Source: Escherichia coli
GTDB taxonomy: Bacteria > Pseudomonadota > Gammaproteobacteria > Enterobacterales > Enterobacteriaceae
Length of the DNA: 64,000 nucleotides
Assembly (NCBI RefSeq): GCF_024502345.1
Contig: NZ_JALDNN010000001.1
Reading direction: 5' to 3' (one strand)
Part shown: piece by piece, positions 1 to 305 of the stretch
Numbering within the stretch: position 1 is the first letter of the stretch
How the letters are laid out: every line of letters starts with the position of its first letter
Translations under genes and position numbers: made by a program
Notes under the pieces: model-generated
What the model was told of the DNA's origin: nothing
The model's input: only the letters and a program-made list of their open reading frames with translations
Databases searched by the model: none

Positions 1-305
1 TTACTTACTAACTCGTCTGGTTGAAAAGTGAATTGATCGACATATTTTTCATTAAAGCACATGACGTTTTGCAGGCCATCGACACCAGTTACCCTAGGCT
101 GTACTGCATCGGGATTAGAACCACGGTATCTAAACGGAAGCAGGTCGCTGAGACCCTGTTCATCCCCGTTTACCGTACACTGAATCGCGCGGGAAATGGT
201 GCTTTTTCCGGTGCCGTTAGGCGCAAATTTAATATTTAGTTTTTTTTCTGCCAGAGTTATATTTGCTTTATCGATGTTATTACAGCAATTAATTTCAATT
301 TCCAT
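1..305 (-). CDS. P-loop NTPase (AAA-type ATPase), N-terminal ~100 codons; gene runs off the left edge
   Basis: Minus-strand ORF not in track (no stop in window). ATG at 305..303 preceded by AAGGA; translation MEIEINCCNNIDKANITLAEKKLNIKFAPNGTGKSTISRAIQ... has Walker A GTGKST. Confidence 0.55.
   Translation of the reverse strand, partial: MEIEINCCNNIDKANITLAEKKLNIKFAPNGTGKSTISRAIQCTVNGDEQGLSDLLPFRYRGSNPDAVQPRVTGVDGLQNVMCFNEKYVDQFTFQPDELVS

What the first reader, a model, noticed from the sequence alone, without database searches (positions are those of the whole stretch)
1..305. Partial P-loop ATPase at the window edge
Only the first about 100 codons are visible (Walker A GTGKST). It is upstream of a mobile-element-disrupted locus and may belong to another defence or Abi-type ATPase system whose remainder lies left of the window.
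Basis: seen in the sequence. Interest (0 to 1): 0.3.

Follow-up and report, generated by a model that had tools for sequence, protein, structure and literature searches.

The report
Start of an RloC-like defence ATPase gene
The window's left edge holds the first 101 codons of a 712-codon stand-alone gene for a Rad50-like ATPase with a zinc hook and a probable RNA-cutting tail; the family is already listed as an untested anti-phage candidate (PADLOC PDC-S06) and resembles the tRNA-cleaving suicide enzymes RloC and PrrC.

Summary
A minus-strand ORF starts at ATG 305-303, has a good ribosome-binding site, and runs off the left edge after 101 codons. The Walker A motif APNGTGKST lies at 224-198.

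At least 14 enterobacterial plasmids are 100% identical over window 1-1424. In the one inspected, pNUITM-VR1_1, the gene is intact at 712 aa (WP_009654821.1, 'AAA family ATPase').

- **Family:** Pfam AAA_13 scores 68 bits. PADLOC candidate PDC-S06 (model PDLC04889) scores E=6e-298 for the full protein and 7e-43 for the 101 visible residues.
- **Not housekeeping:** 84 of 5,426 complete E. coli genomes carry it, as a single copy, on islands, plasmids and prophages. Its neighbours change from place to place. They include R-M systems, a P2-type prophage hotspot, VapBC, a TIR-domain protein, Abi genes and CBASS.
- **Architecture:** a PrrC-type ABC head, a ~290-aa helical insert with a conserved CPxC hook, and a 190-aa all-helical C-domain.

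The most likely role is a single-gene abortive-infection RNase. This is a catalogued but uncharacterised variant of a known kind, of modest interest.

The parts
1..305 (-). 5' part (codons 1-101 plus 2 nt) of a 712-codon gene for an AAA_13 / PDC-S06 ABC ATPase. The other 611 codons lie left of the window.
   Evidence: Translation. PADLOC PDLC04889 E=6.8e-43 on this fragment. 100% identical to the plasmid gene encoding WP_009654821.1.
198..224 (-). Walker A / P-loop codons APNGTGKST (aa 28-36).
   Evidence: N30, G31, G33, K34 and T36 are 90-97% conserved in 86 diverse family members.
239..246 (-). A8 run in the coding strand (T8 on the + strand), codons 20-22. It is a frameshift-prone homopolymer.
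   Evidence: Plasmid pMB18183_1 has 7 instead of 8 and its gene is annotated 'frameshifted'. The window copy is in frame.
312..316 (-). Shine-Dalgarno-like AAGGA, 6 nt before the ATG.
   Evidence: Read directly from the sequence.
306..490 (-). Upstream non-coding region that travels with the gene and presumably holds its promoter. The mobile module ends at about 490.
   Evidence: Identity with the E. coli chromosomal island stops at window 490. Identity with the Pantoea plasmid stops at about 430. The consensus scan found no sigma-70 site. A weak TTTACT-N18-TATATG is visible by eye; this is inference only.

Best explanation
The feature is the start of a stand-alone accessory gene. Its product is a 712-aa RloC/PrrC-like ABC ATPase, in Pfam AAA_13 and in subfamily PDLC04889 of the PADLOC candidate PDC-S06.

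Shown by tool results:
- The head carries PrrC-type ATPase motifs: Walker A GTGKST, signature LSYGE, Walker B/D-loop ILDDPISSFD, and H-loop THD.
- The head is split by a helical insert of about 290 aa. A conserved C215-P-x-C218 sits in a low-confidence loop of the model within the insert, as in the Rad50/RloC zinc hook.
- A 190-aa all-helical C-terminal domain occurs only in this architecture.

Inferred mechanism:
- The ATPase and hook module acts as an intramolecular sensor and brake. It may respond to DNA ends or damage, or to failure of restriction during phage infection.
- When triggered, it releases a HEPN-type, metal-independent RNase in the C-domain. The proposed catalytic residues are R554, E558, K661, N664 and H668.
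- The RNase cuts tRNA anticodon loops or other RNA, stops translation and aborts the infection.

The gene moves as a cassette of about 2.4-3 kb among plasmids, genomic islands and prophages.
For: **Family**
- PDLC04889 matches at E=6e-298 over aa 1-698.
- AAA_13 scores 68.4 bits against a cut-off of 36.

**Fold**
- The AF2 model has pLDDT 80.
- The head and helical insert hit Smc2, RecN, Rad50 and SbcC at E 1e-7 to 1e-5.

**Hook**
- C215 and C218 are 98% conserved, and P216 96%, in 86 members that are 28-57% identical to the query.
- The hook loop is the low-pLDDT segment 210-219.

**C-domain**
- R554 and H668 are 100% conserved, K661 97%, E558 91% (plus 7% D) and N671 96%.
- PrrC sequences fetched here read LLR320-N-LYE324 and R349-IIN352-FTSH356. 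These residues are essential in PrrC (PMC3025547).
- The family reads YLR554-R-xYE558 and K661-FxN664-ETYH668.
- A full-length profile-profile alignment is co-linear. The H-loop-to-Arg distance is 67 aa here against 69 in PrrC, and LRRxYE falls on LRNLYE.
- Both motifs in that order occurred in 0 of 300,000 shuffles.
- K-x6-H ends a helix and is followed by a loop, where HEPN domains place Rx4-6H. [quoted passage not shown]
- PrrC's nuclease domain maps inside the AAA_13 profile up to position 688. Family members P0125 and P0261 align up to positions 668-680.

**Context**
- P2-like prophage, between the replication gene A and the portal gene.
- A second prophage.
- An EcoRII R-M plasmid.
- Directly after type I hsdMSR, and after a type III mod-RhuM-res set.
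- Beside VapBC, a TIR-domain protein and a KAP NTPase; beside an Abi gene and a restriction endonuclease; beside CBASS.
- Present in 84 of 5,426 E. coli genomes.
Against: - Direct comparison of the C-domain with PrrC's nuclease domain is not significant. hhalign gave E=0.14 in a different register and E=0.094. HMM scores are no better than for shuffled sequences.
- Foldseek against the PDB finds nothing for the C-domain.
- The basic residue of the His motif is Lys, not Arg.
- The Arg-Glu to His spacing is 109 aa, outside RloC's defined x36-52 (PMC2610378).
- Two other registers for the R-x3-E match exist: R638-N-G-Y-E642-K in this protein, and the register.
- I could not inspect model coordinates, so clustering of the five residues in space is unverified.
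- No member of the family has published phage-defence or RNase data.
- Some members sit among plain metabolic genes.
- The window does not show whether its own copy is intact to the left.
Confidence: 0.6

Rival explanations
1. It is a defence-related SMC/Rad50-like ATPase whose C-terminal domain is not a nuclease. That domain would be a sensor or adaptor, and the protein would act on DNA or through partners encoded in trans, such as R-M enzymes or SbcCD.
For: - The C-domain has no significant sequence or Foldseek match to any nuclease.
- In two unrelated lineages the gene sits tightly between an R-M system and sbcD-sbcC.
- Weak LmuB, AriA and PtuA hits come from systems in which the ATPase is the sensor and a separate protein is the effector.
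Against: - Most copies, including the window's lineage, have no conserved partner.
- Invariant R, E, K, N and H residues in PrrC-like motifs look like an active site.
Confidence: 0.2
2. It is one half of a two-gene module with the 82-aa ORF 281 bp downstream (WP_016154436 / WP_022645579). That ORF would be an antitoxin-like or trigger partner lying left of the window.
For: The 2,971-bp segment shared by the plasmid lineage and the E. coli chromosomal island includes this ORF.
Against: - The ORF is absent from 24 other loci that carry family members, including the 87%-identical Pantoea cassette.
- It has no Pfam, PADLOC or NCBIfam match.
- A 281-bp gap argues against translational coupling.
Confidence: 0.08
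3. It is a housekeeping ABC-transporter ATP-binding subunit or a DNA-repair ATPase (RecN, RecF or SbcC). Some automatic annotations of homologues suggest this, for example 'EcfA2' and 'cobalt transporter ATP-binding subunit'.
For: - Source names on some homologues.
- Weak ABC_tran and NCBIfam transporter hits over the signature and Walker B region.
- Structural similarity of the head to SMC, RecN and Rad50.
Against: - All those scores are far below the curated cut-offs.
- There is no adjacent permease.
- The head is split by a helical insert and followed by a family-specific C-domain.
- It is present in 1.5% of E. coli genomes, on mobile elements.
Confidence: 0.02
4. In this particular replicon the gene is a dead remnant, truncated or frameshifted to the left of the window, like the neighbouring MFS gene.
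For: - The locus to the right is heavily disrupted by IS3-family, group II intron and IS30 elements.
- One 99.9%-identical plasmid copy is frameshifted in the A-run.
- The junction at 1424/1425 is not found in any PLSDB plasmid, so the source is a rearranged variant.
Against: - The visible 305 nt are in frame and 100% identical to plasmid copies; the one whose annotation I read, pNUITM-VR1_1, is intact.
- The A8 run has the in-frame length.
Confidence: 0.1

Closest known systems
RloC (Rad50-like, zinc-hook anticodon nuclease; Geobacillus kaustophilus, Acinetobacter baylyi; PMC2610378, PMC3458546)
   Same: - Single polypeptide within the 658-897 aa size range.
- AAA_13-type ABC head with PrrC-like motifs.
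- The head is split by a helical insert with a conserved CxxC.
- The C-terminal helical domain has an invariant R-x3-E and an invariant His.
- Usually stand-alone, sometimes linked to restriction systems. RhuM- and R-M-linked examples are seen here, as described for RloC-like ABC-HEPN proteins (PMC3710099).
   Different: - The Arg-Glu to His spacing is 109 aa instead of 36-52, because of a helical insert of about 80 aa.
- Lys replaces the Arg of the His motif.
- No significant profile similarity of the C-domain to the PrrC nuclease domain. RloC sequences themselves could not be obtained for a direct test.
- No biochemical data.
PrrC (tRNA-Lys anticodon nuclease of the E. coli prr locus)
   Same: - Same ATPase motif set: FNGTGKT / NGTGKST, ISKGEE / LSYGER, FIDDPVSSLD / ILDDPISSFD, TTHS / LTHD.
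- Same distance from the H-loop to the LR[NR]xYE motif (69 against 67 aa).
- Same [RK]xxNxTxH motif.
   Different: - PrrC is about 400 aa, with no coiled-coil or hook insert.
- PrrC is embedded in a type Ic hsd operon and silenced by it.
- PrrC has the LARP motif KYGDSNKSFSY, which is absent here.
- PrrC's two nuclease motifs are 25 aa apart, not 103.
PADLOC phage-defence candidate PDC-S06 (13 HMMs, PDLC04886-04898)
   Same: Full-length match to one of its models (PDLC04889, 988 bits). Single-gene organisation.
   Different: PDC-S06 is only a computational candidate. I found no validation in the literature held here. The other 12 models match only the ATPase part, at E 4e-14 or weaker.
Sensor ATPases of multi-gene defence systems: LmuB (Lamassu), AriA (PARIS), PtuA (Septu / retron Eco7), GajA, OLD
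   Same: ABC/SMC-type ATPase heads used as infection sensors. Several of these systems end in tRNA cleavage.
   Different: Those systems use a separate or Toprim/other nuclease effector and have conserved partner genes. The hits here are weak (LmuB E=1.7e-13, the others 1e-3 or weaker) and no partner is conserved.
Rad50/SbcC, RecN, SMC (chromosome maintenance and repair)
   Same: Head fold with an inserted helical or coiled-coil region. CxxC hook as in Rad50/SbcC.
   Different: Much shorter helical insert. No obligatory Mre11/SbcD partner. An extra C-terminal domain. Accessory and mobile distribution.

Membership tests
Pfam AAA_13 (PF13166) | HMM score at or above the gathering threshold (36 bits) | tested here: met
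   The full-length protein, inferred from identical plasmid copies, scores 68.4 bits at E=7e-19. The 101-aa window fragment alone scores 22.3 bits, below the threshold.
PADLOC PDC-S06 (candidate single-gene defence) | Match to a PDC-S06 HMM | tested here: met
   PDLC04889 matches at E=6e-298 over aa 1-698 of 712. The window fragment matches at E=6.8e-43.
PADLOC PDC-S06 (candidate single-gene defence) | Stand-alone gene with no conserved partner | tested here: met
   Neighbours differ across the lineages sampled. The shared DNA cassette is 2.4-3.0 kb. The small downstream ORF is restricted to one lineage.
PADLOC PDC-S06 (candidate single-gene defence) | Demonstrated protection against phage | not testable with these tools
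   No experimental report was found.
RloC | ABC ATPase motifs shared with PrrC (Walker A, signature, Walker B/D-loop DDPxSSxD, linchpin His) | tested here: met
   Alignment A2. Conservation in 86 members. hhalign against PrrC gives E=8.7e-5 and 5.9e-4 for the two head halves.
RloC | Coiled-coil insert splitting the ATPase head, with a central CxxC zinc hook | tested here: met
   Helical insert at about aa 103-390. C215-P-[YF]-C218 is 96-98% conserved. SMC and Rad50 head-plus-coiled-coil structures are the best PDB matches. Zinc binding itself was not tested.
RloC | C-terminal triad Arg-x3-Glu-x36-52-His | tested here: not met
   R554-x3-E558 and H668 are invariant, but the Glu-to-His gap is 109 aa. 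The alternative Glu, E642, gives a gap of 25 but lacks a conserved Arg. The residues are present; the defined spacing is not.
RloC / PrrC nuclease domain | Detectable sequence homology of the C-domain | tested here: not met
   hhalign gives E=0.14 and 0.094. HMM searches in both directions give scores similar to those of shuffled sequences. There is only motif-level and co-linear correspondence.
RloC / PrrC | Anticodon-loop cleavage leaving 2',3'-cyclic phosphate; toxicity abolished by triad mutants | not testable with these tools
   Needs experiments.
PrrC | About 400-aa protein without an insert, encoded inside a type Ic hsd operon, with a LARP motif | tested here: not met
   The protein is 712 aa with an insert. 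In the window's lineage the neighbours are metal-resistance genes, an MFS remnant and CBASS. The LARP motif is absent. Some family members do follow hsdR or res.
HEPN superfamily | All-alpha four-helix core | tested here: inconclusive
HEPN superfamily | Rx4-6H at the end of helix 3, with an upstream conserved acidic residue in helix 2 | tested here: inconclusive
   K661-x6-H668 lies at the end of helix 657-669 and is followed by a loop. E558 lies at the end of helix 546-559. The basic residue is Lys in 97% of members, not Arg.
ABC transporter ATP-binding subunit / RecF / RecN / SbcC housekeeping ATPases | Curated family score, partner genes (permease, SbcD), core-genome distribution | tested here: not met
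   NCBIfam scores are 14-31 bits against cut-offs of 170-700. There is no permease or SbcD neighbour in this lineage. 84 of 5,426 E. coli genomes carry the gene.

The most novel reading that the evidence does not exclude
This is a distinct, widespread clade of single-gene ABC-zinc-hook-HEPN immune proteins (more than 3,400 sequences, about 500 clusters at 50% identity). Its nuclease domain has been remodelled by an insert of about 80 aa and uses Lys in place of the canonical HEPN Arg. Its target (a different tRNA set, rRNA or mRNA) or its trigger may therefore differ from RloC and PrrC. The recurrent R-M-[gene]-SbcDC arrangement hints that it monitors DNA-end processing or failure of restriction.
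Probability: 0.3. Interest if true: 0.55.

Novelty: new variant of a known kind. Interest (0 to 1): 0.3.

Why it matters
If the inference holds, a gene now annotated only as 'AAA family ATPase' is a self-contained abortive-infection RNase of the RloC/PrrC type. It sits on large multidrug- and metal-resistance plasmids of Klebsiella, Citrobacter and Raoultella and in 1.5% of complete E. coli genomes.

That bears on phage-therapy host range and on plasmid biology. It would give PADLOC's PDC-S06 candidate a testable mechanism with named catalytic residues. It would also extend the PrrC/RloC nuclease domain to a form with a large insert, which standard profile searches miss.

It is not a surprise to specialists. 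ABC-HEPN fusions in defence contexts were predicted in 2013, and this family is already in a candidate catalogue.

Tried and rejected
- **C-domain against Pfam:** a scan of the C-domain alone at E up to 10 gave nothing.
- **Sequence search of the PDB:** only ABC-transporter Walker B regions, at E 0.007 or weaker.
- **Foldseek of the C-domain against the PDB:** no hit. The AFDB library was unavailable.
- **PrrC nuclease-domain comparisons:** hhalign and HMM tests were not significant. I therefore do not claim membership of that domain family.
- **Other registers:** I considered two other alignments for the R-x3-E motif, R631/L635 and R638-N-G-Y-E642-K. I rejected them as the main reading because R631, L635 and R638 are variable in the family, whereas R554 is invariant.
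- **DARNA (PD-T7-3):** a tRNA-cleaving HEPN defence protein, checked and found unrelated because it has no ABC ATPase.
- **82-aa downstream ORF as partner:** rejected as a family feature.
- **Upstream region:** no Rfam family apart from the group II intron further right, and no consensus promoter.
- **APECO1_4465:** I could not check whether this ABC-HEPN family of the 2013 HEPN survey is the same family, because the supplement holds no sequences.
- **Source replicon:** I could not identify it. No PLSDB plasmid spans the 1424/1425 junction.

Full report
**Observation**

The first 305 bases of the window hold, on the minus strand, an ORF that starts at ATG 305-303. An AAGGA Shine-Dalgarno sequence sits 6 nt upstream at 316-312. 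The ORF stays open to the window edge, giving 101 codons plus 2 nt. The fragment alone matches PADLOC model PDLC04889 at E=6.8e-43, which rules out chance.

**Recovering the rest of the gene**

- Window 1-1424 is 100% identical to at least 14 large plasmids, most of them typed conjugative, from Klebsiella, Raoultella, Citrobacter and E. coli.
- In pNUITM-VR1_1 the gene is intact: 2,139 nt, 712 aa, WP_009654821.1, 'AAA family ATPase'.
- A 98% identical copy lies in an integrase-bearing island next to ychF in E. coli chromosomes.
- One 99.9% identical plasmid copy is frameshifted in the A8 run at window 239-246. The window's run has the in-frame length.
- I cannot see whether the window's own copy is intact. 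No plasmid in the collection spans the junction at 1424/1425, where an IS3-family element begins.

**What it is not**

NCBIfam transporter, RecF and SMC-related models score 14-31 bits against cut-offs of 170-700. There is no permease next to the gene. It is present as a single copy in only 84 of 5,426 complete E. coli genomes.

**Family**

- The full-length protein passes Pfam AAA_13, the family that includes PrrC, at 68.4 bits against a cut-off of 36.
- It matches one of the 13 models of PADLOC's candidate PDC-S06 end to end, at E=6e-298. Hits to LmuB, AriA, PtuA and PrrC are much weaker and confined to ATPase motifs.
- More than 3,400 homologues were found. They are about 700 aa long and 57-72% identical among the best 120, from Proteobacteria to Cyanobacteria. 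None has an informative name.
- I found no experimental work on PDC-S06. It appears only in surveys, and once as a probable true positive of a language model.

**Architecture**

- An AF2 model (pLDDT 80) shows an ABC head split by a helical insert at about aa 103-390, followed by a separate helical C-domain.
- The head and insert match Smc2, RecN, Rad50 and SbcC heads at E 1e-7 to 1e-5.
- Within the insert lies C215-P-[YF]-C218, the low-confidence loop of the model. It is 96-98% conserved in 86 members that are only 28-57% identical to the query. This is the Rad50/RloC 'zinc hook' arrangement (PMC2610378).
- The head motifs are of the PrrC type: LSYGER, ILDDPISSFD and LTHD, against PrrC's ISKGEE, FIDDPVSSLD and TTHS.

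**The C-terminal domain (aa 524-712)**

A profile of this domain searched against 1.84 billion representative proteins found 502 clusters. The full-length proteins among the 150 best listed have the same ~700-aa architecture, apart from one 848-aa protein that adds a C-terminal Peptidase_S24 domain; the shorter entries look like fragments. Pfam finds nothing for it, and Foldseek against the PDB finds nothing.

To compare with PrrC I fetched PrrC genes by their LARP motif. Their nuclease region reads ...HFTLLR320-N-LYE324-KTA...SR349-IIN352-FTSH356-S. R320, N321, E324, R349, N352 and H356 are all essential in EcoPrrC (PMC3025547). The family studied here reads IYLR554-R-xYE558 and K661-FxN664-ETYH668. 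Conservation in the 86 members:

| Residue | Conservation |
|---|---|
| R554 | 100% |
| H668 | 100% |
| K661 | 97% |
| E558 | 91% (plus 7% Asp) |

A full-length profile-profile alignment is co-linear through this region. It places LRRxYE on LRNLYE, and the distance from the ATPase H-loop is almost the same, 67 against 69 aa. The two motifs are then 103 aa apart instead of 25, with helices 565-650 inserted between them. The K-x6-H motif ends a helix and is followed by a loop. [quoted passage not shown] Both motifs in order occurred in 0 of 300,000 shuffles of the domain, although this is a post hoc test. PrrC's nuclease region lies inside the AAA_13 profile up to position 688, and two family members align to positions 668-680.

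Against this reading:

- Direct domain-to-domain tests are not significant. hhalign gave E=0.14 in another register and E=0.094. HMM scores were no better than for shuffled sequences.
- The basic residue of the His motif is Lys.
- The spacing violates RloC's defined x36-52.
- I could not check three-dimensional clustering of the residues.

I therefore say that the protein works like an RloC/PrrC enzyme, with moderate confidence. I do not file the C-domain as a proven member of that nuclease family.

**Genomic context**

The gene moves as a small cassette:

- 2,971 bp are shared between the plasmid lineage and the E. coli island.
- 2,434 bp are shared with a Pantoea plasmid at 87% identity.
- In window coordinates, the shared upstream region ends at about 490 (E. 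coli island) or about 430 (Pantoea).

Neighbours change completely between lineages:

| Context |
|---|
| Metal-resistance genes, an MFS remnant and a Cap15/CD-NTase CBASS, in the window's plasmid lineage |
| An integrase island with a 1,589-aa helicase |
| VapBC, a restriction endonuclease and an Abi gene |
| VapBC, a TIR-domain protein and a KAP NTPase |
| A P2-like prophage, between the replication gene A and the portal gene |
| A second prophage, next to a terminase gene |
| An EcoRII R-M plasmid |
| 48 bp after type I hsdR and overlapping sbcD |
| 28 bp after type III res, with RhuM, and 25 bp before sbcD-sbcC |
| Between ordinary metabolic genes |

The 82-aa ORF that follows the gene in the closest lineage is absent from the other 24 loci and matches no family. 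The gene is therefore a single-gene module. Its recurrent linkage to R-M systems and prophages mirrors what has been described for PrrC, RloC and related ABC-HEPN proteins (PMC3710099).

**Mechanism proposed**

Shown by tool results: the ATPase family, the hook, the invariant residues, mobility and the defence-type contexts.

Inferred:

- The protein dimerises through its ABC heads and possibly its hook.
- The ATPase and hook module keeps the C-terminal RNase latent until a signal of infection arrives. The signal could be DNA ends or damage, or disabled restriction, as for RloC and PrrC.
- The HEPN-like site then cleaves tRNA anticodon loops or other RNA and stops translation.

My estimates: about 0.97 that the ORF is the start of this family's gene, about 0.75 that the family is a defence or abortive-infection function, and about 0.5 that the effector is a PrrC-like RNase.

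**Verdict**

The family is already catalogued, though untested. The remodelled nuclease domain makes it a variant worth an experiment, not a surprise.

Noticed in passing
window 18676-29115 (- strand): A compact defence island with five genes: type III restriction Res (18676-21414), type III Mod (21436-23142), an AbiU-like protein (23197-25062), AbiD (25053-25994) and a DrmD/BrxH-like SNF2 helicase (26140-29115). The R-M system could be a trans partner for an RloC/PrrC-like enzyme.
   Followed up: partly
window 1425-6150: A pile-up of mobile elements begins exactly where identity to the reference plasmids ends (1424/1425). It contains an IS3-family transposase fragment (1443-1877, -), a group II intron (RT ORF 2000-3523, -; Rfam Intron_gpII 1910-1996, -), further IS3 pieces (4115-4525 and 5745-6089, -) and IS30 (4674-5825, +). 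The same block is 99.1% identical in Citrobacter plasmids.
   Followed up: partly
window 1424/1425, compared with L003:13582-15337: In related plasmids a two-gene CBASS (Cap15-family effector plus CD-NTase) follows the MFS remnant. It is absent from the whole 64-kb window, apparently lost or displaced by the IS insertion.
   Followed up: yes
window 589-1407 (- strand): MFS transporter remnants (ORFs 589-1194 and 1234-1407). The reference plasmids also annotate these as split or short MFS genes, so the disruption predates the IS insertion.
   Followed up: partly
window 491-518: A perfect 9-bp inverted repeat, ATGTCCGCT-N10-AGCGGACAT, lies exactly at the point where the plasmid lineage and the E. 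coli island diverge (the module boundary). No T-run follows it. Its function is unknown.
   Followed up: no
window 239-246: An A8 homopolymer lies in codons 20-22 of the ATPase gene. A 99.9%-identical plasmid copy has A7 and is frameshifted, and the E. coli chromosomal allele interrupts the run. This may be a mutational on/off hotspot for a toxic gene.
   Followed up: partly
L049:5001-11601 and L055:5001-11654: In a Legionella genome and in an unrelated metagenome contig, the family member sits tightly between an R-M system (type I, or type III with RhuM) and sbcD-sbcC, all on one strand. This recurrent R-M-[gene]-SbcDC arrangement is not explained by the single-gene model.
   Followed up: no
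window 6114-18533: A 12.4-kb block that is 100% identical in many Klebsiella and Raoultella plasmids but lies about 43 kb from the ATPase gene there. It encodes a WYL-domain protein, inovirus Gp2-family proteins, DUF2913 and others. The window's source is therefore a rearranged relative of those plasmids.
   Followed up: no
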